Of a DNA stretch of 64,000 nucleotides, positions 37,975 to 64,000 are shown one piece after another. Below the pieces are notes generated by a model. That model was given only the letters and a program-made list of their open reading frames with translations, was not told the DNA's origin and made no database searches. The DNA is from Fimicolochytrium jonesii (taxonomy: Eukaryota): contig NW_026515701.1 in assembly GCF_025526975.1 (NCBI RefSeq), positions 248,001 to 312,000 of the forward strand, given 5' to 3'. The stretch's first letter is position 1. Each line of letters begins with the position of its first letter. The position numbers and the translations under genes were made by a program.

Positions 37975-38102
37975 CGTTCCTGCGTCAAGGTGGGAGGCTT
38001 TATTTGACGACGTCGCACTTTCTCAGAGCTTTTGCAACGTTGGGTGAATTTGAAGCCGCGCATGCGAAAGAAACCATTCTGTTGACCGCAACCTTCCCAG
38101 TA

Positions 38103-38443
38103 CAGTAACGTCTCGTTTATTTCAATTCCGGTTACTTCAACTTTCGCTTATTTCAACGGTCAGAGGGTTTGGGTTAGGGTTAGGGTTAGGGTTCGGGTAA
38201 CAATGACTTTGACAACACTGAGAGCACGAGGCTTGAGCACTGAAGAGTTCATTGCTCGCCAGATTCTTAGTGAGGAAGGGTTGGAGGTTATGGGGTTAGC
38301 CTAGGGAGTGCCTGTTCACCGAGCTTAGCGTACGTTTTAGTTGCGCACCTGTTTGTATACCCTTAGTATGAGGAGGATTTCAGATATTTCAACTTTCGCT
38401 TATTTCAAGGGTCAATGGTGTTGAAATAAACGAGACGTTACTG
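38103..38443. mobile_element. MITE (Tc1/mariner/pogo type), 341 bp
   Basis: Perfect 23-bp TIRs CAGTAACGTCTCGTTTATTTCAA (38103-38125; 38421-38443), TA on both sides, and 27-bp subterminal direct repeats (38136-38162, 38388-38414). Confidence 0.9.
38165..38200 (+). repeat. Interstitial telomere-like (GGGTTA)n tract inside the MITE
   Basis: GGGTTT GGGTTA GGGTTA GGGTTA GGGTTC GGGTAA. Confidence 0.85.
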
Positions 38444-38516
38444 TAGTAAAGCGTCGAACGCTCGGAATTCGCGTTCCTCAAGTTTGAACATCCCAAACAC
38501 CATCCCAAACAGCAAA

Positions 38517-49274: not shown

Positions 49275-51593
49275 CTACTTTCCGGCTCTCACCCACTCAG
49301 CAGCCATATCGGCCTTTCTCACAATCTCCCACGTCTTCGCCGCCGCTTTGTACCACTCCCTCTCTGACATCAGATACCAAGCAGGAACGCCAGATGGAGT
49401 AAAAGATGAAGCTCCGGCGCTAGTCAGATGCGCCTTAGACGACGTTGGTGTCTCCGAAGGTGCCGACGTCATCCCTGGTCTTCCGCTGTGGTTCGAATGT
49501 GTCTGGCTTGGTAGAGGTGATGTTGCCACCTGCTCGTGTGGGCCAAGACCCTTCCTCCTGCCCAGCACCGAAGCAGCTGGTGGTGAGGCATGAGGTGTCA
49601 TGTTCATCTGTACAGCAGGCTGATCAACCCCGCCTTCCGGATTCATGGTGCTCGTAGTAGTGTGGGTATTCTGCTGTTGGGTATCTGTATGACTGCCAGC
49701 CCGGGAGAGTTTACTTGTAGGCGTAGGAGCGGGGGTCGAGGGTACGTAGCGAGGCGTCTCGTAAACCTGAGTGAGAAGGATGGACGCCAGGGTATCATAG
49801 CGCGCGGGAATGCCAAAACCAATCAGGCGAGATGCGAGGGATCGCCGTTTTCGAGGACTCATGCTGACATCTGGCGCGGTATTCTCTGAGTCTTGTGAGT
49901 TTTCTGATATTCGAGGAAGTAGGAAAACATTTCCTTGAGAAGTTCCAATGCTATTGATGTTGGCATCCGACGGCGGGTACATCTTGGGAAACGCGTGTCT
50001 CAGTCCGATCGTCGGATGCCCCGACACTCCCGCTCGCGCCCCCTTGAATCTGGCCACAAATGCTTTTTCCGTCAAAGCAAGCGCATGTCTTTCATAGGCT
50101 GGTCCGGTGCAGTTCGTCCTCACAAACACGAGCTGGGGACGTGCTTCGTCCTTGTTGCCACTGGATGATGGAAACAGACGATGCCGCAAAGCCTCAACTC
50201 GGTGAAGAAACGAGAACGTATCTTCGTCGACGAGGTGCCGGAAAGATTGCTGCCGCTTGTGCGTGGTCGCATCCCCTCCATTCGCGAATTCCGTAAGACC
50301 GCTGCGCGATGCACTCTGCAACAACAGAGGCTGAATATTCTCGAGCTCTTCCTCAGCGGTGAGGTTAGCTCCGTCGCTATTCAGTGATGGGCTCACGATG
50401 AGTAATACGTGACAGACTGTAAACATGAACGTGGCAACCCTGATCGACTCCATGGTATCCTGCCTTCCCAACTGCTGTGTTGAAGGGGTATGTCCTACCA
50501 GCGACTGCGAATCCAGAATTACTACACGCTCTGGTGTTATGTGTAGATCGATCCCTGCTGTGGGCAACTGCGACGACGGACTTGCCGTCGGGTTCAAGAA
50601 GTGGGAGACGAGAGTGCTTTTGCCGGAGTCTCTCGGACCAATGACACCGACAATAAAGGAGCCGGGTATCTCGGATAAGGAGCGATGTATGGCCTCTGAG
50701 GTCTGGAACCGAAAATATTGGTCCACAAGCTTATGCGTTCGAGTTGCTGTGATGGGTAGTTGCTGCTGCGCGTACAGTCTTTGCGGCTCGTGAATATGGG
50801 CTGGCTCGTCTGCAAGCTTTGTACCTGTTGGGGTTGAGTGATGTTCGGGTTGCCCTGCTATCGCTTGTGCTGGGGGCCTTCTGAGTAAGAGACCTGTCGG
50901 CATTATGGTGGGCTTCGAGAGTTGTCCGCCACCGCCGCCGGATTGCGGTCTCCTTTCCAGCAATGGACCGTTTTCCGCATTTTTCCTTCCCTTGTCTCTG
51001 CCCCTTCCACGTTGGTCTCCCCTCTCACGGTCACGGTCACGGTCGCGGTCACGCTCACCATCCGGGTCTCTCTGACGGTCGTGTTGCCCTCCACGACGGG
51101 AATGTTGACCTGATCCCGAGCCGGATCTCTCGACCCTGGTGCCGGAACCCCCTTCCGCGCGGCCTGCCAAGCTTCTTTCCACGCGCGGTTGTCTTCCATC
51201 GTTCGCTCTGCTGTCTGCGGTTGCTGCATCATCTCTGTCATCGGGTGCAATCGTCAGGGTCCGCAACTCACTAACTCCGCTACGGTTTGGTGAATGCTCA
51301 TTCGGAGGAGCTTGCTGTCTCCGGCGCGGTGCCCGTCTGTTGGCTGACTTTGGCGATCCGGAGGCAGTGGACGGCGGTCCTTGTCCGCCTTCTGAGAACT
51401 CGTCCCTCCGTGAGTGCCATCCCTGCAAAGGTTCCGATAGCTTTGAAGGCTGAGCCGACAACGAGACTGCCTGAGACGGCGGCTGGGGTGGGTTCAGACC
51501 GTGGGGCGGGTGGGGCGGTTGAGGAGGACGAGGAGGTTGTGGTGGCTGAGGCGGACGATTAGGCTGCGGCGGTCGAGGCGGCGTCGATGACAT
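49275..51593 (-). CDS. SMG9: Nonsense-mediated decay factor SMG9-like P-loop protein, intronless
   Basis: IVGVIGPRDSGKSTLVS, GIDLHITPERVVILDSQ, FMFTVCHVLLIV, and C-terminal MSEREWYKAAAKTWEIVRK. Confidence 0.85.
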   Translation of the reverse strand: MSSTPPRPPQPNRPPQPPQPPRPPQPPHPPHGLNPPQPPSQAVSLSAQPSKLSEPLQGWHSRRDEFSEGGQGPPSTASGSPKSANRRAPRRRQQAPPNEHSPNRSGVSELRTLTIAPDDRDDAATADSRANDGRQPRVERSLAGRAEGGSGTRVERSGSGSGQHSRRGGQHDRQRDPDGERDRDRDRDRERGDQRGRGRDKGRKNAENGPLLERRPQSGGGGGQLSKPTIMPTGLLLRRPPAQAIAGQPEHHSTPTGTKLADEPAHIHEPQRLYAQQQLPITATRTHKLVDQYFRFQTSEAIHRSLSEIPGSFIVGVIGPRDSGKSTLVSHFLNPTASPSSQLPTAGIDLHITPERVVILDSQSLVGHTPSTQQLGRQDTMESIRVATFMFTVCHVLLIVSPSLNSDGANLTAEEELENIQPLLLQSASRSGLTEFANGGDATTHKRQQSFRHLVDEDTFSFLHRVEALRHRLFPSSSGNKDEARPQLVFVRTNCTGPAYERHALALTEKAFVARFKGARAGVSGHPTIGLRHAFPKMYPPSDANINSIGTSQGNVFLLPRISENSQDSENTAPDVSMSPRKRRSLASRLIGFGIPARYDTLASILLTQVYETPRYVPSTPAPTPTSKLSRAGSHTDTQQQNTHTTTSTMNPEGGVDQPAVQMNMTPHASPPAASVLGRRKGLGPHEQVATSPLPSQTHSNHSGRPGMTSAPSETPTSSKAHLTSAGASSFTPSGVPAWYLMSEREWYKAAAKTWEIVRKADMAAEWVRAGK

Positions 51594-53408
51594 GCCCTCT
51601 GCGTTTCGATACTTTCCGGAAATGCCCGTCACTGTCGCTCAAAATGGTGGACGGGCAGGACAGTCCCAAACCCCTCTAAGGAAAGCGCCGCAATAGATAA
51701 TAACAACTACATCACGTGACTCAGTCCTGTTTAGTGGCTGCTGTCGCGTGTTTTACAGTTCCCATCATGTACAGTACTGTATATGTACCGAGGTGCGAGC
51801 AAAGCGCATGAATAGCGGTGAAACTGGCAAATGGTGCCATGTGTTTTCTCCTGGGGACGGTATCCTATTAAAGGGCCAACATGTTTGCTCAGTCCGAGGA
51901 CCCGGCGTGACCGTCTAGGCGATGCCATCCTGAAAACCCGGTAAAATGAAATGGCCCTTCTACTTCGACTGAGCCATATGTGTCTCTGATTTGGTTCCTC
52001 GCATTGGTAAGCTGATAATACGCCAATTCTCAGAGAATTGGGTATGTTGAAAGAGTATGCCATCTCGGTTTTTTTGTCAGATAGACAGCTATTGCTTGCA
52101 GCACGTTCGTGGACCCGCAGCACTGCAAGAGGAGAAAACCTGCACGATCGAGACTATATATGTATATATACCTAATGTGCGAGGTGTGAATGAAGCTGCC
52201 ATGCACTGAGCGCAGACATTGTCGTCCGAGCAATTGACAGAATCAGGACTTGCATTGTGGGACAGGGTGGTGTAAAAGCATTTCAAAATGCCAAAATGTG
52301 CAAGCTGCTGCCCAATTTGGGCAGCAGATCACATGAGCCTGCACTAGTGACGACGCGCGTGTTGGCGAGTCGGACAAGCATCGCACATTTGGCGATATGA
52401 AGTCCGAGCGACCTTCAAACCCTATACATAACTTGGTTCTCAATATTAGCCCAATTCAACCAATGAACCCCAAGTACTTCCAAACAGCAAGGGGTCTTGG
52501 GGGCCCTGCAGTCTCCTTCCATGGGGGTGTTTTCATTCCCGAGATGAGGACAGCAAGCAAGGATAGCTGCAGGTAAACTATATCCGAACCTCGTTCACTT
52601 CACAAGTCATCCCATTTACGATCCCTGTTGCAGACTGTACGATCCCAGCAGTCTGTTAGAAGCCCTCGGAGTTCCGAAGCTTCGGGTCCGATGTGAGAAA
52701 GGGCCCACAATGTTCGTAAAAGCAATGTGCTATGGGGAGACACAGAGCACATTGAAAACCTTATGTTCGGCCGATGGAATCAAGGAGGTCCTTATAGTGC
52801 ATGGGAAAGCTGTTGTTCGCTCCATTTTAGCTCAGGGTCGTGTCAGTACTGCACTTCTTTGCCTTCCGACTTCAATCGGTGAATCAGCTGAAGGTAGAGA
52901 GGACGACCCAGCCGATGACATGGAGAGTGGTTCGGACACCATCGGGAGTGGTTCGGGGAACATTCGGAGTGGTTCAGAGAACATTGGGACAGCTGGACAT
53001 CCTTCTGGAGGTATGCACGAGATCCCATTCAACAAACAAGCAATGGACAAAATGACCAAGTGTTACCAAGCCTGGATTCAAACCCCTCGGCTGAATGAGC
53101 AACCTGTCTCTCGTACTGCAAGTGTTCGCTATACCCATCAATGAGCTGGGAGTCACCGAGAAGAGTGGGATGAGACATGTCGAACGACCCACTCAGGAAC
53201 TTGCGTCGCCCGTGGACAAAGAATGATCACTCCAGTGAGCGAGGTGGCCGGTTCGAATGCCTGCAGGTATGATGATACTGATGTTGTCGTTGAAAGCATC
53301 CCACTAATCTTGGCCTCCATGCAGGGCTCCTGGGGCAACTGCTGTTCACCGGGCTTACGCCAAGCATGGCATCGCCAAACTCATTCATGCGATGGCATGG
53401 ATCGCCTC

Positions 53409-53971
53409 TGTTATGATCTCAACGACGGAGGCGGAAGCGAAGTAGAGAAGACAGGGCGAGAGCGATAGGCGACAAGAGATTGTAATGGCAAAACAAGAAA
53501 CAAGGACTAGAACAGGAGATGAGAAGAACTGGTGTTGATCTGCTGGGGAGGAAGGGAATGGACGAAGAGAGGCCGGCTATTTATAGATGGGCAACCCAGC
53601 AGATCAGAGAACAACAACAACAAGAGGGGACTTGGGGGGCGCCAGCTATGCTCCTAGAGCGTGCGTGGCGAGCGTAGAGAGCATTGCTACAGCTGCTGGC
53701 TATGAGGAAGTAGTGGGGGGTGTGGAGAAGCCGAGGGGGGATTGGCGAAATGAGAGGAGAGAGGAGGAGTGGCGATATTGCAAGAGGATTGGCGAAATGA
53801 GAGGAGAGAGGGGGAGTGGCATTGACATTGACATTGACACTGACATTGACATTGACATTGACACTGACATTGACACTGACATTGACATTGACATTGGCGT
53901 TTGACATTTGGCGGTTGACATTGGCGGCCGTCAGTAGGTAAGCTTATGGTATGGGCTCGTCGTCCATAACA
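53409..53971 (-). repeat. 3' LTR with an (ATTGAC/ACTGAC)n microsatellite
   Basis: Direct repeat of 58936-59495; adjoins the PPT. Confidence 0.95.
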
Positions 53972-53983
53972 TCACCCTTCTCT

Positions 53984-56900
53984 TTAGCGGCCGCGGCGGC
54001 GGCGTCGAGTTTGGTGTGGCCGCAGAGGAGGTGCTACAGGGACAGAGGAAGGCTTGTTGGGGTACGCGCTGTGGAAGTCCTGGAGGAGTGCGTCGGTATG
54101 GGTGAGGTGTTCCACGGGCTCCCAGGTGTTCTCAGAGTCAGGCCAGCCCTGCCCTTTGACCAAGTACTGAAGGCGACGACGATGGATGCGAGAGTCAAGG
54201 ATGACTTTGACAACCCACTCTTCTTGACCCTCAACGGTCTCTGGGGGCGCGGGTTTGGGTTCGTGTCGTTTGGGGATGGTGAAGCGGGGTTCGAGAAGCG
54301 AGACATGGAAGACATCGTGGATTTTGTACGTAGGCGGGAGCTTGAGCCGGTAGGCGACGGGATTGATTTTTTCAACGATGGGGAATGGCCCAATCTTGCG
54401 ATGGTCGAGTTTCTGAGAGGGCCGGGTTGTATGGAGGTTTTTGCGGAGGAGCCAGACGTGGTCGCCATGCTTGAAGTCCGGTCCAGGAATTCGTTTGGCG
54501 TCGGCGTAGCGCTTCATTTGATCTTGGGCTTTCTTGAGCTCGAGGGCGAGCTGTTCATGGACTTCCCTGATTTGTTTAGCGCGGGCTTCCGCGGCGGGGT
54601 TGACGGATTCGGAGGTAGCAGAGGCCGCAAAACTGAAGCGGGGGTGGAGACCCTTGTTGGCGTAGAAGGGGGTGGTCTGGGAGGCAGACTGATGGGTGTT
54701 GTTGTAGGCGAACTCGGCGGACGACAGAAGCTGTTTCCAGTTGTCCTGTTGGTGGTTGCAAAAGCATCGGAGATACTGCTCCAGGATCTGGTTGGTGCGT
54801 TCTGTCTGGCCATCGCTCCGGGGGAGGAAGGCCGAGGAGAGGTTGGCTTTTGCCCCAAGGAGTTCAAGAAGTCGACGCCAGAACCGGGACTTAAACTGGG
54901 GTCCTTGGTCAGAGATGACGTCGTCGGGAGGCCGTGGAGACGGATGATGTTGTAGAAGACTAGGTCGGCGGTGGATTTGGCGGATTCTGACTCGCTGCAG
55001 GCGATGAAGTGGGCCATCTTGGTGAGGCGACAGTTGACGTTCAGGATGGAGTCGTACCCGTCCACGGGAGGCAGACCGGTGATAAAGTCCAGGGACCAAG
55101 ATCCCCAAGGGCGGGTAGGGATACTGTTGGGCTGGAGTAGGCCGTATGGTTTGTGTCGACTGGATTTCGCTTGGCTACAGGTATCGCAGGACTTGACGTA
55201 GGCCTTGACGAAGCGCCACTGGCTGGGCCACCAGTAGTTGCGGGAGGCGAGTTCGAGCGTCTTGGACATCCCAAAGTGGCCGGCTAGGGGAGTATCGTGC
55301 ATGTCGTGGCAGACTTCAGCTCGGAGCTCGTTGGTGGGGACATAGACCAGGTTATCGTGCAGCAGGATCCCATCTTCATCTGAGAACCGCTTGATACGAT
55401 CTTGGGTTTCCTCAGTTCGTTGGGCGAGGGGTATCTTGAGCTTTTCGCGAATGGCCTTAGCGAGGAGATCAGAGGCCTGGGCGGCCTTAATCTTGTCAAG
55501 CAGCGTGGTATCCATGGGTGTGAGGTAGGCAGCCGCGAGTCGAAGGCGTTCGGGAGTCAAAATTGTGGTTGCCTGGGAGCGGAACGCTTCTTCCCCCTTT
55601 TTTTGCTCATGTTCGGAGCGTCGGGAGAGGGCATCGGCTTGGTGCTGCTGGGAACCGGGGCGATAGGTAATGACAAAGTCAAAATCCGAGAAGAATATCG
55701 ACCAGCGGGCTTGGCGGCGGTTCAGGGTGCGGGTGGTCATGAAGTACTGAAGGTTTTTGTGGTCGGAGTAAACGGTGATCTTGTGACGGGCGCCAATGAG
55801 ATGGTGGCGCCACTGGGCAAAGGAGTCTTGGATGGCCAGAAGTTCCTTGTCGTAGATCTCGTAGTTGATCTCTTCGGCCGTGAATTTGCGAGAGTGGAAG
55901 GCCACGGGGTGGAGCTGATTGTCCTGGTCAGGTTGGAGGAGAACTGCGCCAAGAGCGAAGTCGGAGGCGTCAGTTTCGACGACGAAGGGCTTCTCTGGGT
56001 CAGGGTGAGCAAGGATGGGGGCGGTGGTGAATGCTTTCTTCAGGTTCTCGAAGGCGGTGTTTGCGGCGGGTGTCCAGGCGTACGGGATGTCTTTCCGGGT
56101 CAGGGACTGTGAGCGGGGTAGCGATCTTGGAATAACCTTGGATGAATCGGCGATAGAAGTTGGCAAAGCCGAGGAACCGCTGGACGCCTTTGACAGTCTT
56201 GGGAGGTTCCCAATCCGTGATGGCAGCGATCTTCTTGGGGTCCATCTGGATGCCTTTCTCGGAGATGATGGAGCCTCGGAACTCAACGGATTCGCGGTTG
56301 AATTCGCATCTCTCCGGTTTGGCGTACAACCCATGCTGTCGGAGGCGGGACAAGACTTCGCGGACATGTTTGGGGTGATCTTCGGGGTTCTTGGAGAATA
56401 TCAGGATATCGTCGAGGTAGACGACAACAAACACATCGAGAATGTCGCGGAAGATGTCGTTCATCAGGTACTGGAAGACGCCAGGAGCATTGCTGAGTCC
56501 AAAGGGCATGACATTGTATTCAAATAGGCCGTAGCGGCAGCGGAAGGCGGTCTTCCATTCATCGCCCGGGCGCATGCGTAAGAGGTTATAAGCGCCGCGG
56601 AGGTCGATCTTGGTGAGACGGCGGGCGCCGCGCAAACAATCCATGATACCGTTGATCAGGGGCAGGGGGTAGCGATTCTTCACCGTGATGCTGTTCAGGC
56701 CTCGATAATCGACGCAGAGGCGGAGAGAACCGTCCTTTTTTTTCACGAATAAGACTGGTTACCGGCAGGGGACTTTGAGGGTTTGATGAATCCTTTGGCG
56801 AGGTTTTCTTCGAGGTATTCGCAGAGTGCCTTCATTTCTGGTTTGCTGAGGCTGTAGATCGGGCCGAAAGGTGGCTGCTTGCCTTCTTCCAGATCGATTG

Positions 56901-57895
56901 GACAGTCGTAGGGCCGGTGCTCGGGGAGAGTGTCAGCATTTCTCTTTTCGAAAACGTCGGCGAAGTCTCAATACTCAGGGGGCAGGAAGTCTTTGATGTC
57001 TTTCTCGGGTGTCGGGGGTTTACTGGGGCTAGGAGAGGCTGGGAGATCGGGTTTCGCAGGGTTGGCGTAGCCGACAAAGACCTGGTCATGGCTTGCTGCG
57101 ACCCGGGAGGCTGGGGCGGAGATGAACGAGACTCGGAGCGGCGTGGGAGCCGGTCCTGGGGTGCTGAAGCGAGATACCTTGGGTACTGGAATCGACCATG
57201 TTTCGTCGACGGGGACTTCATCCTGGGGGATGCGGATCAAGGGCTCGGGGGTTCTGGCGGGTGCTGGGCTTGGGGGTGCTGGAGAGTTGTCCCAATTCGC
57301 GAATTCATGGTACAGACAGTCGCAACGGAAACCGACCGAAAGGTTCTTGAAGTCAAGGTTAATGTCGTGGAGGCGGAGCCAGGGGAGACCAAGGGGGATT
57401 GGAGCATGGGGTGATTTGGTGACATGGAAGACAAGTTCTTCGAAGTGGTCGTCAACCCACATGCCTACTGGTTGGGTGTGATGGGTGATTGGCCCAGCAG
57501 AACTGGGTTGACCGTCAACGAGTTCGATCTGTCAGGGGACGCTGATGTTGGACTAGGGGGATGCGGTGTTTGCGGGCAAAGTCTCTGTCGATGAAGCAGG
57601 ACAGGGCACCATTGTCGATCATGGCTGAGGTAGGTATTGGGGCGCGGCTGGATGATACCATGATGGTAACGGGGTAGTTGAAGGGTTCGAGGGGACCCAG
57701 CGCAAGCATGGCGTGGGGGTTAATTCCGGAGTTTTCGACAAGGGCAGCGGCTAGGAGGGTTGTGTCGGCTATAACGGAGTTGGGAACCAGGGGGGTGGCC
57801 TCTCCCGTTGCAGGAGCTGTGAGGTTAGGAGGCCCGGGGCGGTGTGTGTTGTCCAGTCGCTGGGGCTTTACTGCGGCTGGACTTTGGGAAAACCC
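53984..57895 (-). pseudogene. pol: pol (protease, RT, RNase H, integrase, chromodomain), disrupted
   Basis: [85 protein letters not shown]. Frameshifts near 57520, 56760, 56110 and 54930; stop at 56968. Confidence 0.93.
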
Positions 57896-58866
57896 TGTTT
57901 GGTGGAGGGTTCTTTGATGTCGACGTTGGCGGCACGGATGGTGGTCTTGTTCTTGACGGGGCAGACTTTTGCAATGTGCCCCGCACCACCGCAGTAAAGG
58001 CAGAGGCTGTTGGAAATGCGGCGTTGGCGTTCCTGAGGGCTCAGAGGGCCGCGGGGACAAGCGGCGTCAATCTGCATAGGCTCGCTGTGGTCGACAGTGG
58101 TGGTAGTAGTAAACGAGGTATGGGGAACCGGGAAGGTCTGGCGGCTTCCGTTTCGCTCCAGGCGGCGCTCAAACAGCCGGTTATCGCACTGGATAGCCTG
58201 CTCCATCACCACATCAATGGTGGCCGCAGGGGGCATTGTGAGCATCAGGTCTTTGACGTCTTCTTTGAGGCCACGGCGGAAGGTAGCGATCAGGGCCTGG
58301 TCGTTCCAGGAGACATCGCATTGTAGCTGGCGGAACTCAGCGACGTACTCGGTTGCTGCACGGGTTTGGCGAAGGTTCTGGAGCTTGTTTTCAGAGGTGC
58401 GGACCGTGTCGCTGTCTCCGAAGACCGATTGCATCTGACTGATAAAACTATCGAAGTCCTGAAGGCTGTGATCTTGGCGTTCGACTAGGGGCGCCATCCA
58501 GGCTTGCGCAGTGCCGGTGAGGTAGGTGCCAATAGTTTGGATCTTGATGATGTCGCTGGGGTAGCGGTCGGGCTGGAGAGCAAACATCAACCGGATGTTG
58601 TTCAACTACCCACGGAATTTGCTGCGGGTACCATCAAACTTCTCGGGCGAGCTGATTCTTGGCTCCAGAGCAGGGTTGGTGGCTTGGGGAAGGGTGTACG
58701 TATCGGCTTGAACCTGGGCGGCGATGCTCTGGGCAGCTTGTGCGTCGGCTTGGGCTTGCGCTAGGTTGGCCTGCAAGTTGGCGTTTTGGCTTTGCAAGGC
58801 GGCGATGGCTTGGCACATATCGTTCCATTGCTTGGCGGTGAAAGGTACGGATTCGGGTTGGGACAT
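57868..58866 (-). pseudogene. gag: gag with CCHC zinc knuckle; in-frame TAG at 58606-58608
   Basis: PEKFDGTRSKFRG*LNNIRL, YLTGTAQAW, LRQTRAATEYVAEF, EPMQID, CLYCGGAGHIAKVC. Confidence 0.93.
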
Positions 58867-58935
58867 GGCGAAAAAGGTTTGTCGGATGCAGGGCTGGACG
58901 GGTTCTGAACTTCGCAGTGTTGGAGCAGATCAAAC

Positions 58936-59495
58936 TGTTATGATCTCGACGACGGAGGCGGAAGCGAAGTAGAGAAGACAGGGCGAGAGTGATAGGCGAC
59001 AAGAGATTGTATTGGCGAAACAAGAAACAAGGACTAGAACAGGAGATGAGAAGAACTGGTGTTGATCTGCTGGGGAGGAAGGGAATGGACGAAGAGAGGC
59101 CGGCTATTTATAGATAGGCAACCAAGCAGATCAGAGAACAACAACAACAAGAGGGGACTGGGGGGGCGCCAGCTATGCTCCTAGAGCGTGCGTGGCGAGC
59201 GTAGAGAGCATTGCTACAGCTGCTGGCTATGGGGAAGTAGTGGGGGGTGTGGAGAAGCCGAGGGGGGATTGGCGAAATGAGAGGAGAGAGGTGGAGTGGC
59301 GATATTGCGGGAGGATTGGCGAAATGAGAGGAGAGAGGGGGAGTGGCATTGACATTGACATTGACACTGACATTGACATTGACATTGGCGTTTGACATTT
59401 GGCGGTTGACATTGGCGGCTGTCAGTAGGTAAGCTTATGGTATGGGCGCGTCGTCTAGTAGGTAAGCTTATGGTATGGGCGCGTCGTCCATAACA
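58936..59495 (-). repeat. 5' LTR with TATAAATA (59112-59105) and a 32-bp tandem duplication
   Basis: Direct repeat of 53409-53971; upstream of gag. Confidence 0.95.
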
Positions 59496-59934
59496 GCCTC
59501 CCCCGATGAATATTATTCCAACCGAGACACGATCAAGGGTCTCACCGATATCGACAAGGCATATCTCTCAAAAGACGATTGCTGGTCTACCCACACCCAC
59601 ATTTAGAATTCGACAGTTGATTGCCACTTCGATGTCGAGGACAAGGGTTTCACAGCTCAGTACACCTTTGGCGACTTCGACGATGGGGGAGATCTTGAAC
59701 TCATCGATGCAGGTTTTGTTCTGAAGCAGGAAGTGGGTACCTTAACCCTGTTCCGAGCCGATCTTCTTCATCATTCAGTGACCGACTACTCGAGGGGGAA
59801 TCGGTATGTGCATTCGATGTATATGCAAAAAAAAGTACGCAACGCTGTACAGAGGAAACCTGGGGATGCCGAGTCGTAGAGTCTGTTTTTGTATGTACTG
59901 TACTTTGTATCAAATATATTCGAGTCTTTTTGAA

Positions 59935-62900
59935 TTATTTTGGTGAACTGCTATCTACGCCTACTTCTACGTGTGCATGTTTACGTGGGGTCGTTGTCGG
60001 TGTAGAGCTTGGTGTTGCCAAGTGTACAGTGGTTGCGATACTTGCTGTACGCTCAACAACATCGTGATCAACCCGGTGAAAGGAGCGAATGGCAAGGTAT
60101 GGTGTTGCGGTTGTGTCGGCACGAGCCCTTTTCCCCGCGAGTGTTGTGACTTTACTGGCTTGAGTACGTGTCTGGCCGGTTGACCACTCGCTCAAGTTGG
60201 TGATGTCTTTGCAGTAGCTCTTTTGTTCGTAAGAGTGGCCGTGTGCGACGGGTCGGGAGTATCCAAGCTGGCCAGGTACGCTCATCTTGTGCTGGAAGCG
60301 GTGCCAAGGATCAGCCATTTTGCATCTGCCACCAAAAATTGTGACATGTACCTTGTGGACGATGAGAAGCTTCTTCAGCGCAAGGAAAGCATCGGTTGGG
60401 GAGGCTTTGTTGACTTGATCACGTCCACCTATGCAAACTCCAGAGTGTAAGTGGCACAATATCATGCCGACAAATAAAGCTGCATATCTTTTCCGAGGAT
60501 TTGTTTGAATGCTGAAAAGTGATTCTCCACATCATTGGATTGTTGCCAGCGATCGTTGAAGAGTGGGGTGTATTTCTCGGGATCGGGAGAGGTTTTGGCA
60601 TATGTTTTGTTGCAAGGAACACTTTCCAAGAAGCGAATCATTGCTTTTCGCCCAAAACACAGGATTAGTGTCGCCTCCAACAGTTCAATCGGGAGAGCAG
60701 TCTCTTCATTGTGCAGAAGCGCCGAGGGGCAGGTGAGCCTCGAGTGGCGGTATGCATAAGGGGTCTGAAGAAGATGCGATCAGCAGGGTTCACCATACAT
60801 GAAAGGTAACACCTTGTCGGCCAGCCAATCAATCATACGGTCAACCCTTGCTTCTCGATCGTCCTGCAAAATACCAGACAGATCAAGTGCTTCAAAGAAT
60901 TCTCGAAGAACATTGCAAAACTCAGCTTCCGTCGCATATCCTGTTGTTTCCAGAATATCTGCGACCTGCTTGCAAAACCCGGTCTTTGCATCAGGGACAC
61001 ACTGATCGTCACGCTTATACCACCAAGTTCCAAACACCTCGTTGTGTTCAGGCATTCCCGCAATGCTCAGCCAGGCTTCTTTCCTCAAGTGGGCTCCGCA
61101 CCTGGATGTTGTAACATGTTTGATAAATTGCTTCATGACGTGATCCAGGTCGATGGAAATGATCAAAGGAAGGTCTCGGTTACAAGGGTTCCTTTCAGGC
61201 ACATAAAGGGAAGAAAAGAAATCGTTGCCAGCCCTCCTCCTCTCGGCCAATCGCCTTTCCACCCGGATATGTGTGAGCCATTCTCGTAATGGCGACATGG
61301 ATGTGCGATTTGTGTTCGCTGCCACAATAAGCGCCGAGATCGTGAGAGTTCGTGCAAGGTTAACAGGATGTCCCCGCTGGCCTGGCAAAAATGCTGACAT
61401 GTTGAACTGTCATTCCTGTTGTGTCAGTGCCCAGATCTCAACAATCTCCAGAAGGTTTCGCAACTCAGGGATGCCGACCAAGTCTATGCGTCCAAAAACA
61501 TGTAGAGTTTCAAGTAGCGTTGCAAAGAATGGGGCACCCTCACTGCGATAGTTTCTCAGCAGTGTTTCCAAACCCGCAGGTAGATGTGGAACAAATCGTG
61601 TGCCGATTCCGTAGGGCATGCCATCCCACTGTTGAGCACGGGATTGCAGAATATATTCATGGGCCTCTTCCTTCAGACACTCCACGATCTCGGCTTTCTT
61701 CCTGCCCTCTTTCACAACCGCATCCAGCTCGGCGCGCCAAATCTAAACACGACACGATGAGTTACTGTTCATTATTGGAGTTGCAGGAAGCAAACCTACC
61801 GCATTAATAAATTTCGGCTGGTCAAGCCCCCGTGTTGCAAGAGAATGACTTGCCCCATCGCACAACACAGAGATAACAGGAATTGAGCGCTTCTGGAATT
61901 CCTCGAGCAGAACTCGAAGAATTGCGGTATTCTGCTGATGGTTTGGTGCTTCCACAAAGCAGGCAAAGACAATCTGTGATTTCAAACGCTGGGAGTTGGC
62001 GAAGGTCCAAAGCTGTAATTTCTTTGCCCTTGGCAAAAGATGCAGCCGTGCAGCAAGGAAGTACTCTAGCGCATTCCGACATAGGCTGACTAATTCGTCT
62101 TTGTGTTGCAGTAACAGCCATGTCGACGGCAGAAGGTCGAGGGGGTTGTCGGTAACGTCGGGGGGTTGCGCCAGCTTCAACTGCCAATTTGCGCATTCGG
62201 TAAGAATTTTTTCCACGGCGGTGCGAAGATTGTTTGTTTTCACCGCATCACTTTCGTAGGCTCCTAACGCAGCTGCCGGGCGCTGACTGGAAGGTGCAGT
62301 GAGCACTGTCCCTGCTTCAAAAGCAATCGCACCAGTCTCAATCTCGCGTCGTTTCGTGGTTACTTGTTTCTCCGCTCCAACTGCATACACAGTCAGCTGC
62401 GCTAGGAGGGCTACAAGATTGCTTTCACATTCCGTCAGCCAGTGGGTAAATTGAACCGTCAAACGTGGGTCGCCCCATGTGTATTCAACATCTTGTGCGT
62501 CGTTCATTTGTGCCATGCACAACTGTGTGCTCAACTCGAATGCGTTGAGGGCTTGTTCAACCTGCGGTGCAGAAATCAGGGTGCGCCGACATGAGTTGAA
62601 ATGTGCACAGAGACAATACCGTTGCCACATCCTACAGTCCCAGAATGCTCTCAGTCAGTCCGGGGCCAAGGTCGACAGTTCCCGTCAGCCGTCCTTTGCT
62701 TCCACGTTGAACAGTCGAGATTCCGTAATCGGTTTCATCAACCCCAATGCCGCCGGCCAGGTAGCGCAATCCGAGACTTTCCTGCAGCCGAGCGTGTTGT
62801 GCACAAATCACGTCTATGCGGTCCGAATCCAATCCAACAAGCTGCACACCCACATCTGCTCGAAGCTTCTGCTGAGCACGCTGTGATGGGAGAACCAGGT

Positions 62901-63883
62901 TTCCGTCTTATTCGCATGGCTTCCGCGGCCCACTGCGCCCAACTCCTGCCCATCCTTTGCCGACAAGAAACTTGTAAGCCCGACCGCCAAAGCGGGTCTC
63001 AAATTCAAACCAGAACTCAGCAACACGAGAAGAGAAGATGCTGCATCTCCGCCCACGGTAGTCCTTCACCGTAAAGAACTGTAACTGTATCGGATAGCGT
63101 GGTAGGTGTCAGTGATGGCAATTGTGACAATGGCAAGATTGGTAGGCAAAATAAAAGGGGCAAATGGGCGAGCACGACGCACACATACCTGACTCGCGAT
63201 GAATTCCCAGAGCCAGTGAGTGGGCCTCAGGCATCCTGAAACTACAGCCCGCATCGCCATCAGAGCAATGTCAATCACCTCCATATCCTCGAGGTCGGTG
63301 AGCTTGTGGTACTCAGTGTAGAGCTTTGCTGCTCGATACACATGTTTGTTCTCCTTTTCAAAGATGAAGGCACCTTTCTTGTCGTTGGCCAGGACTCGCT
63401 TGGTAGGCAGTGCTCCTTTTGCCAGCAACTGATCGTGGGTGAGACTCCCATTCCGACCTCAGAAACCCATGAGGCCAGTCTGCAGAAGATCTCCTTGCAT
63501 GGCTCTGTTCTTGTCGACCAGGCATTCAACTCTCTGCTTTGTCTCCTCATGTTCCTCCTGCAGTTTGGTGTAGGTCGTTTGCAGTTTGGTAAAGTCGTTT
63601 CCGAGTTTGGTATGTTCGGATTGGAGTTTGGTGGCCAAGGAAGCCTGCAACAAGATCCCATTCAGTTTCCAGGTGTCCTTGGACTCATTGCATTAGGCAT
63701 ATACAGTGCCAGAATGGTGAACATATTGTCGCTGTCGATACCATAGATGATTGAGTCGGTGGTGAGAAGTTGAGTCGGGGGCTTCAAGTTCGCATCAGGG
63801 GGAGTTCGATGGTAGCAGCCTCGGACACGATTCTGAATCTGAGCAACGATGAATACTGTCTGTTTGTTGTCAAGCCACTCATG
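59935..63883 (-). pseudogene. Large decayed P-element/THAP9-like DDE transposase
   Basis: Ordered motifs: NLVLPS, GVDETD (D1, ~62735), GTVDLG, VISVLCDGASH (D2, ~61858), IDLDHVMK (DxxH, ~61145), DDQCVPDAK..F..QVA, EAEFC..L..FFEALD, QSNDVENHFS (E, ~60525). Many stops and frameshifts; 5' end cut by an LTR. Confidence 0.72.
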
Positions 63884-64000
63884 TGTTATGGACGACGCGC
63901 CCATACCATAAGCTTACCTACTGACAGCCGCCAATGTCAACCGCCAAATGTCAAATGCCAATGTCAATGTCAATGTCAGTGTCAATGTCAGTGTCAATGT
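63884..64000 (+). mobile_element. Start of another LTR of the same Gypsy family, opposite orientation (truncated by window)
   Basis: TGTTATGGACGACGCGCCCATACC...(GTCAAT)n is the reverse complement of the LTR end. No PPT precedes it, so it is a 5' or solo LTR. Confidence 0.93.

What the first reader, a model, noticed from the sequence alone, without database searches (positions are those of the whole stretch)
52463..63883. Candidate new system: P-element-like DNA transposon carrying a TET/JBP DNA dioxygenase
Seen: a TET/JBP-like gene (+, stop at 59879) and a P-like DDE transposase (-, ending near 59935) converge about 55 bp apart. Both are similarly decayed, both are hit by the same Gypsy family, and they lie next to intact housekeeping genes. 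Known: fungal TET/JBP genes are carried by Kyakuja-Dileera-Zisupton and Plavaka transposons, mostly in basidiomycetes. I do not recall this linkage for P-superfamily transposases or in chytrids. Inference: the two genes form one element whose cargo enzyme oxidises 5mC (or 6mA/T) and could act as an anti-silencing module. The element termini are not visible; the right end lies beyond the window.
Basis: partly seen in the sequence, partly recalled or inferred. Interest (0 to 1): 0.92.

Follow-up and report, generated by a model that had tools for sequence, protein, structure and literature searches.

The report
P-type transposon carrying a TET gene
A broken, multi-copy jumping gene of the P-element type in a chytrid fungus sits tail-to-tail with a TET-family DNA-oxidising enzyme gene, which it likely carries as cargo and would use to undo silencing by DNA methylation; such cargo is known from many other fungal transposons, but I did not find it reported for P-type elements or chytrids.

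Summary
Real, with corrected anatomy. The window's transposase is a Fimicolochytrium jonesii gene model. Its family folds like Drosophila P transposase (Z 28.2, rmsd 2.9 A over 388 residues; Transib 11.8, Hermes 10.0) and keeps D-D-D(2)H-E. It is not KDZ or Plavaka. The partner is a TET/JBP dioxygenase (ESM Atlas 0.96). The pair recurs as consecutive gene models on a second contig, and more transposase copies lie on further contigs. Sister copies show that the window copy carries an internal inversion (about 53032-63666) that swapped the two 5' ends: 52463-53010 is transposase, 63667-63883 is TET. Both Gypsy insertions therefore hit the TET gene. A metagenomic relative is a complete 5.3-kb TIR element without TET, so the cargo is optional. 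Termini and target duplication of the TET-bearing element are not shown; 52263 is a tentative left end. Both genes here are dead. Anti-silencing by 5mC oxidation is inferred; thymine activity is not excluded. TET cargo is published for 11 transposon lineages in Dikarya (Kojima 2025), and this scan noted it before on other DNA with other carriers. A P carrier and a chytrid host were not found in print: a new variant of a known kind.

The parts
52023..52041 (.). Perfect 9-bp hairpin; may lie in or just outside the element's left end
   Evidence: 2 such hairpins (arm 9 bp or more, loop up to 6) in 51609-52470, 0 in 1-51600
52263..52274 (+). Tentative left terminus (starts CA; 10 of 12 bases match the terminal repeat of the relative L001)
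   Evidence: best match in the 854-nt gap; 3 of 120 host tiles hold such a match; window-wide 5 matches against 6.6 expected, so not significant by itself
52305..52327 (.). Perfect 11-bp subterminal hairpin
   Evidence: L001 also has a subterminal hairpin
52463..53010 (+). Transposase exons 1-2 (52463-52572, 52634-53010), cut off from the rest by the inversion
   Evidence: P0004, P0008 and P0009 join this stretch to the transposase coiled coil
53020..53033 (.). Left inversion breakpoint (53030-53033); the 12-mer at 53020-53031 recurs only at 63653-63664
53032..53408 (+). TET middle part (53032-53266, intron 53267-53324, 53325-53408); premature TGA at 53142-53144
53409..59495 (-). Gypsy LTR retrotransposon inserted in the TET gene; LTRs differ at 16 of 527 sites; 5-nt target duplication 53404-53408 / 59496-59500
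59496..59879 (+). TET/JBP catalytic part: H-x-D at 59625, distal His 59772, Arg 59802; premature TAG at 59604-59606 (Trp in P0005)
59935..63644 (-). P-type transposase, exons 63644-63189, 63084-62620, 62561-61800, 61742-60488, 60428-59935; catalytic D 62739, D 61859, D(2)H 61151, E 60527; 5 in-frame stops, a frameshift near 63640 and a splice donor changed from GT at 60487
63653..63667 (.). Right inversion breakpoint (63664-63667), 3-nt microhomology with the left one
63667..63883 (-). TET 5' part, interrupted at 63883/63884 by the second LTR; about 105 more residues expected beyond the window
   Evidence: P0005 residues 99-176 match here; the Atlas structure match to Tet_JBP clusters spans P0005 114-326
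63884..64000 (.). End of a second Gypsy LTR of the same family, opposite orientation, inserted in the TET gene

Best explanation
This is a dead, internally inverted copy of a multi-copy P-superfamily cut-and-paste transposon of a chytrid, which likely carries a TET/JBP dioxygenase gene inside its ends, tail-to-tail with the transposase; the intact enzyme would oxidise 5-methylcytosine on the element's DNA and so would blunt host silencing. Shown: P-type transposase, TET/JBP family, recurrence of the pair, several diverged copies, the inversion junctions. Inferred: that both genes lie between one pair of terminal repeats and move together; that the host methylates transposons; that the substrate is 5mC; that oxidation helps the element. 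Ancestral layout (inferred from sister models): left end, transposase reading inward, 55-nt gap, TET reading inward from the right end. In this copy the inner segment flipped at a palindrome in the second transposase intron, and two Gypsy insertions, stops and a frameshift disabled both genes.
For: Transposase: an AlphaFold model of a full-length family member (P0014, E 6.8e-33 to the window protein; pLDDT 71.4) matches P transposase 6P5A first (Foldseek E 1.1e-4; Z 28.2, rmsd 2.9, 388 of 442 residues, against Transib 11.8, Hermes 10.0, ISCth4 8.7). The family profile's best PDB hit is also 6P5A, but weak (E 0.16). The window's own model P0003 falls among THAP9/P clusters in the Atlas. D, D, D(2)H and E align across homologues. 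TET: Atlas features 0.96, 24 of 30 hits in the Tet_JBP set, structure TM 0.69 over 199 residues; PHROG 2OG-Fe(II) oxygenase E 1.8e-5. Linkage: 509429 (transposase, 193 of 219 identical in its longest block) and 509430 (TET, 73 of 86) are consecutive models on another contig; the inversion junctions are reciprocal between the two genes. Mobility of the family: L001/L002 hold the same 5,283-nt element (2 differences) with terminal inverted repeats and different left flanks. Methylation context: CpG observed/expected 0.80 and TpG 1.31 in the element, against 0.88-1.05 and 1.05-1.23 in 9 of 9 equal host tiles; 5mC is confined to transposons in the chytrid Spizellomyces (PMC12695648, passages).
Against: No TIR pair or TSD is shown for a TET-bearing copy; the right end lies outside the window and no genome is held. 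The second pair rests on consecutive model numbers and equal contig length; strand and distance were not seen. TET was found beside only 1 of the other transposase models (P0004, P0006, P0007, P0008, P0009), and the TET search covered only proteins of 224 residues or more. The one complete relative has no TET. Pfam scores are below the curated cut-offs (Tet_JBP 15.5 bits against 34.9; TNP-like_RNaseH_N 13.9 against 24.6). By spacing, the position of TET2 H1904 holds Gln, and H1904Q raises thymine oxidation fivefold in TET2 (PMC11804724, passages). CpG loss is mild, and the TET-less L001 element is also CpG-poor (0.70). Every copy seen in this genome looks broken, so no selection on the TET gene is shown.
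Confidence: 0.8

Rival explanations
1. The TET gene belongs to a separate neighbour (a host gene or another element) next to a P element, and the two were copied together by segmental duplication rather than by transposition.
For: No enclosing TIR or TSD shown; the complete relative L001/L002 lacks TET; only one other pair was seen.
Against: Only 55 nt separate the stop codons, with no terminal repeat seen there. Both genes differ from the second pair to a similar degree (88% and 85% identity in the longest blocks). Transposase copies lie on 4 contigs at differing identity, as for a dispersed repeat family.
Confidence: 0.1
2. It is one element, but the cargo acts on another base (thymine, JBP-like, or 6mA) or marks the element rather than lifting silencing.
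For: By spacing, Gln stands at the H1904/H297 position and Asp at HxD+3; Asp there is shared by NgTet1 and the thymine-oxidising JBP1 (PMC11804724). Spizellomyces has high 6mA on expressed genes. CcTET acts on 6mA (PMC12730594).
Against: Asp at that position defines the preference for C5-modified cytosine in NgTet1 (PMC4678852). The Gly that helps 6mA binding in CcTET is replaced by Asp here (by spacing). AG-type fungal TETs also lack His at the equivalent place (read by eye), and CcTET, a close AG-type relative, oxidises 5mC. Removing 6mA, an active-gene mark, would not help an element.
Confidence: 0.2
3. The inversion in the window copy is an assembly error and the genomic copy is colinear with its sisters.
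For: No reads were available. The neighbouring model P0004 is identical to the window over residues 518-768 but differs upstream, which could reflect collapse or mis-joining of copies.
Against: The junctions are reciprocal without gain or loss, share a 3-nt microhomology, fall at the tip of a palindrome and restore the TET frame; the Gypsy inside keeps its target duplication.
Confidence: 0.1

Closest known systems
TET+ fungal DNA transposons (Kojima 2025, PMC12730594): Zisupton, Kyakuja, Dileera, hAT7, IS3EU, Harbinger/PHISTA, EnSpm, ESTA, Plavaka, Helitron1/2
   Same: A DNA transposon with a separate TET/JBP gene as cargo, with TET-less relatives in the same lineage; proposed anti-silencing role. 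By eye the catalytic half is colinear with AG-type sequences.
   Different: The carrier is P superfamily and the host a chytrid; the paper has 0 occurrences of 'P element' or 'chytrid' and its supplement 0 of 'Chytridiomycota'. The enzyme has Asp at HxD+3 and a loop after HxD two residues shorter than the AG type.
Drosophila P element transposase / THAP9 (PDB 6P5A; PMC7776569)
   Same: Coiled coil, HTH, split RNase H with D-D-E and a helical insertion domain that superpose over 388 of 442 residues.
   Different: No THAP domain pattern (THAP is animal-restricted per PMC7776569). About 1,300 residues, with long helical inserts between the first strands and between the second Asp and D(2)H. Carries a second gene. 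TSD unknown.
Fungal P elements (Pucciniales, Allomyces; PMC5751038)
   Same: Same superfamily, rare in fungi (11 transposase-bearing copies in that survey).
   Different: This lineage falls below Pfam's P-family cut-offs (0 of 45 proteins reach one), so it was probably missed by such surveys; homologues are in at least five other chytrid genera and in Saprolegnia.
NgTet1 / TET2 / JBP1 / CcTET dioxygenases
   Same: HxD...H iron triad, Arg for 2-oxoglutarate, aromatic residue six after the Arg, Asp at HxD+3 (spacing partly recalled).
   Different: Gln at the H297/H1904 position by spacing; activity untested.

Membership tests
P superfamily | RNase H-fold transposase with D-D-E triad and D(2)H motif | tested here: met
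   (the D(2)H label is recalled from Yuan and Wessler 2011, which was not held)
P superfamily | HTH plus P-type helical (GTP-binding) insertion domain | tested here: met
   fold of family member P0014: Z 28.2, rmsd 2.9 A, 388 aligned, 6P5A residues 135-565; Atlas neighbours of P0003 carry TNP-like_GBD. GTP binding itself untested
P superfamily | Terminal inverted repeats | tested here: inconclusive
   met for the relative L001/L002; only a tentative left end at 52263 for the window copy
P superfamily | 7-8 nt target site duplication | tested here: inconclusive
   none at L001, whose flanks may come from different copies; L002 ends at the terminus; the window's right end is missing
P superfamily | N-terminal THAP domain (animal members only) | tested here: not met
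   no C2CH pattern in the first 420 residues and no Pfam THAP hit; not expected in fungi (PMC7776569), so not counted against membership
KDZ (Kyakuja-Dileera-Zisupton) | GE..E..W catalytic signature (recalled) | tested here: not met
   no KDZ Pfam hit
CMCT (Plavaka, EnSpm, ESTA, Transib) | [quoted passage not shown] | tested here: not met
   no C..C anywhere and no H(3-4)H before the E; Transib/RAG1 Z 10-12 against P 28
TET/JBP dioxygenases | HxD...H triad and Arg in a double-stranded beta-helix | tested here: met
TET/JBP dioxygenases | Family-level match extending N-terminal to the core (not AlkB or prolyl-hydroxylase type) | tested here: met
   Atlas 0.96, 208 of 256 features, TM 0.69 over residues 114-326 (the Atlas's own model has pLDDT 0.48). 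Pfam score below cut-off
TET/JBP dioxygenases | Oxidises 5mC (or T) in DNA | not testable with these tools
   needs an assay
TET+ DNA transposons (Kojima 2025) | TET gene enclosed by the element's termini in several copies | tested here: inconclusive
   pair recurs and the inversion links both genes, but the ends were not seen

The most novel reading that the evidence does not exclude
An unnamed, THAP-less P-superfamily lineage spread through chytrids and oomycetes, with recently mobile members, has captured its own TET/JBP gene: the first TET cargo on a P element and outside Dikarya. Its pocket (Asp at HxD+3, Gln for His) would make it a mixed 5mC/thymine oxidase that writes 5hmC or 5hmU in a genome that also uses 6mA.
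Probability: 0.2. Interest if true: 0.72.

Novelty: new variant of a known kind. Interest (0 to 1): 0.52.

Why it matters
It would extend TET capture by transposons to a further superfamily and to early-diverging fungi that use both repressive 5mC and active 6mA. That supports repeated, independent recruitment of demethylating enzymes as a counter-defence. It also exposes a divergent P-type lineage that Pfam misses, with a seemingly intact 5.3-kb member (L001/L002) that could be tested for transposition and GTP dependence outside animals. The principle itself is published and the copy here is dead, which limits the interest.

Tried and rejected
No genome is held and no sequencing run was listed, so copies, ends and junction reads could not be examined. 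Scans of viral contigs found no relative of either gene; phage tblastn gave one hit at E 0.9. Single-sequence PDB searches were uninformative. An AlphaFold model of the TET C-terminal part from a 2-row alignment had pLDDT 36.2 and was not used. The TSD search at L001 was negative. KDZ and CMCT membership were rejected on motifs and fold. A first idea that the two Gypsy LTRs caused the inversion was rejected: the breakpoints lie about 380 and 220 nt from the nearest LTRs and the target duplication is intact. Two introns in gene model P0003 look like gene-caller skips of stop codons; homologues align through the second. The paper search for the recalled P terminal motif found 0 occurrences among the 10 papers listed, so it is not used. 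Iyer 2009, 2013, 2014 and Yuan and Wessler 2011 were not held; Iyer 2014 and its supplements could bear on the claim that chytrid TET-transposon links are unreported. Look-ups of earlier findings by place and by sequence were empty.

Full report
Origin. No genome is held for the window. A protein search with the read-through transposase returned 2 proteins among 7,996 candidates, both Fimicolochytrium jonesii models on a 323,871-nt contig. P0003 (EV422DRAFT_509608) equals the window frame apart from its introns, so the window comes from this chytrid. P0004 (509609) is a second, neighbouring copy that is not in the window.

What is in the sequence. A Gypsy element spans 53409-59495. Its LTRs differ at 16 of 527 aligned sites, and the same five bases flank both ends. 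A third LTR of the family starts, inverted, at 63884. A dioxygenase frame ends at 59879 (+) and a transposase frame at 59935 (-), 55 nt apart. To the left lies an intact host gene starting near 51593.

The copy is internally inverted. The TET search (proteins of 224 residues or more only; 1 hit among 219 candidates) found P0005 (509430) on a 327,040-nt contig. Its residues 99-176 match 63913-63680 on the minus strand (the real match begins at the LTR edge, 63883), and its later residues match 53068-53408 and 59496-59753 on the plus strand. Conversely P0004, P0008 and P0009, on three different contigs, join 52463-53010 (+) directly to the coiled coil at 63632 (-). The junctions are reciprocal. 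Flipping about 53032-63666 back, with a 3-nt microhomology and no gain or loss, gives a 304-codon TET frame with two internal stops and a 43-nt GT-AG transposase intron that folds into a hairpin of -26 kcal/mol with the break at its tip. An in-frame join alone has a one-in-three chance; the sister models carry the argument. Whether the palindrome caused the break or arose with it is open. So 52463-53010 is transposase, 63667-63883 is TET, and both Gypsy insertions hit the TET gene. The ancestral order was still tail-to-tail.

The transposase is P-type. Pfam is weak (TNP-like_RNaseH_N E 0.068). A phmmer search of 1.84 billion representatives gave 44 proteins at E up to 0.001. None of 45 proteins scanned reaches a Pfam P-family cut-off. 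In the frames that sister copies support, the window protein has about 1,300 residues, with first Asp at 62739, second Asp at 61859, D(2)H at 61151 and Glu at 60527. These align across most of the 16 homologues included; P0030 and several partial or animal-like sequences do not align at the first motifs. I folded the full-length homologue P0014 with a 40-row alignment (pLDDT 71.4), because no window model holds all four motifs. Foldseek ranks P transposase first (E 1.1e-4; next Transib and RAG1 at 1.2e-2), and VIA-align gives Z 28.2, rmsd 2.9 A over 388 of 442 residues, against 11.8 for Transib, 10.0 for Hermes and 8.7 for ISCth4. The window's own P0003 lies among THAP9/P clusters in the Atlas, behind one unnamed cluster. 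KDZ and CMCT signatures are absent, and so is a THAP pattern. The window gene is dead: five in-frame stops, a frameshift near 63640 and a lost splice donor at 60487.

The family is mobile, and TET is optional. A metagenome scan returned 2 loci from 146 pattern matches. L001 and L002 hold the same 5,283-nt element, with 2 differences, terminal inverted repeats and different left flanks. It encodes a transposase that looks intact and no TET (best tblastn E 4.9-7.4). No target duplication can be read. In the window, 52263-52274 matches that terminal repeat at 10 of 12 bases. Such a match occurs in 3 of 120 host tiles of the gap's size, but window-wide the count is at chance (5 against 6.6), so this end is tentative. 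Two perfect hairpins lie in the gap and none in 51.6 kb of host DNA.

The cargo is TET/JBP. Pfam Tet_JBP gives E 0.01, below cut-off, and PHROGs a 2OG-Fe(II) oxygenase at E 1.8e-5. The Atlas places P0005 105-326 with Tet_JBP clusters (0.96; 24 of 30 hits) and aligns residues 114-326, across the inversion junction, at TM 0.69. The HxD, distal His and Arg are intact. By spacing, partly recalled, there is Asp at the NgTet1 D234 position, Tyr at F295/Y1902 and Gln at H297/H1904. D234 sets the preference for modified cytosine in NgTet1 (PMC4678852, passages), but JBP1 also has Asp there, and TET2 H1904Q gains thymine activity (PMC11804724, passages). 5mC is the likeliest substrate; thymine is not excluded.

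Linkage. A search for shorter transposase relatives returned 4 proteins among 7,996 candidates, all F. jonesii. One is 509429, the model numbered just before the TET 509430, on a contig of the same length. Strand and distance were not visible. With the window, P0004, P0008 and the pair P0007/P0009 (same contig, possibly two halves of one copy), this makes about five copies on four contigs. TET was seen beside only one of the others, but short TET fragments were not searched.

Mechanism. Shown: anatomy, families, recurrence. Inferred: the transposase moves the whole unit by cut-and-paste, and the TET oxidises 5mC laid on transposons by the host. In the chytrid Spizellomyces 5mC is confined to transposons and 6mA marks expressed genes (PMC12695648, passages). 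The element is mildly CpG-poor and TpG-rich against 9 of 9 host tiles, which fits past CpG methylation but does not prove it; the TET-less L001 element is CpG-poor too.

Novelty. Kojima 2025 (PMC12730594; I read parts 1-5 of 7 of the text, the figure legends, and parts 1 and 11 of 20 of the supplement plus a term search) describes TET cargo in 11 lineages in rusts, mushrooms and Pezizomycetes, with no P element and no chytrid. P elements in fungi are listed as rare, from Pucciniales and Allomyces (PMC5751038, passages). P domain layout and TSD lengths are from PMC7776569 and PMC3698922 (passages). Searches for TET with chytrid and transposon, for P element with TET, for P transposases in fungi and for TET JBP with Kyakuja and Plavaka listed no report of this pairing; I saw those only as listings unless named above. 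Iyer 2014 was not held. This scan has noted TET cargo on hAT, Mutator-like, CACTA/ESTA and Plavaka-type carriers in other genomes (unchecked notes). Verdict: a new carrier and a new host phylum for a published kind of element; interest 0.52.

Noticed in passing
window 38101-38445: Perfect 25-nt inverted repeats 295 nt apart, beginning and ending with TA, with an internal 47-nt repeat: looks like a MITE of the Tc1/mariner type (label recalled).
   Followed up: no
P0004 (F. jonesii 509609), beyond the window: The neighbouring copy is identical to the window protein over residues 518-768 but about 4% different upstream, and ends at the same stop: gene conversion, a chimeric copy or assembly collapse. 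A copy next door also fits local hopping.
   Followed up: partly
L001:88-5370, L002:302-5584: Complete, seemingly intact 5,283-nt P-type TIR transposon of the same unnamed lineage from metagenomes, without TET; perfect 19-nt inverted repeat at L001 359-421.
   Followed up: partly
P0047, P0064, P0065: Distant relatives carry a YqaJ-like exonuclease domain ahead of the transposase part.
   Followed up: no
window 53984-54300 (-): The Gypsy pol ends in a chromodomain-like stretch (label recalled); gag and pol hold several stops and frameshifts, and the right LTR has a 33-nt tandem duplication at 59424-59495.
   Followed up: no
window 49275-51593 (-): Intact host gene with a P-loop motif, SMG9-like by recall; only weak Pfam P-loop hits.
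   Followed up: no
Atlas: The nearest cluster to the transposase is an unnamed 67-member eukaryotic cluster, mostly Basidiomycota where known, so the lineage may reach beyond chytrids and oomycetes.
   Followed up: no
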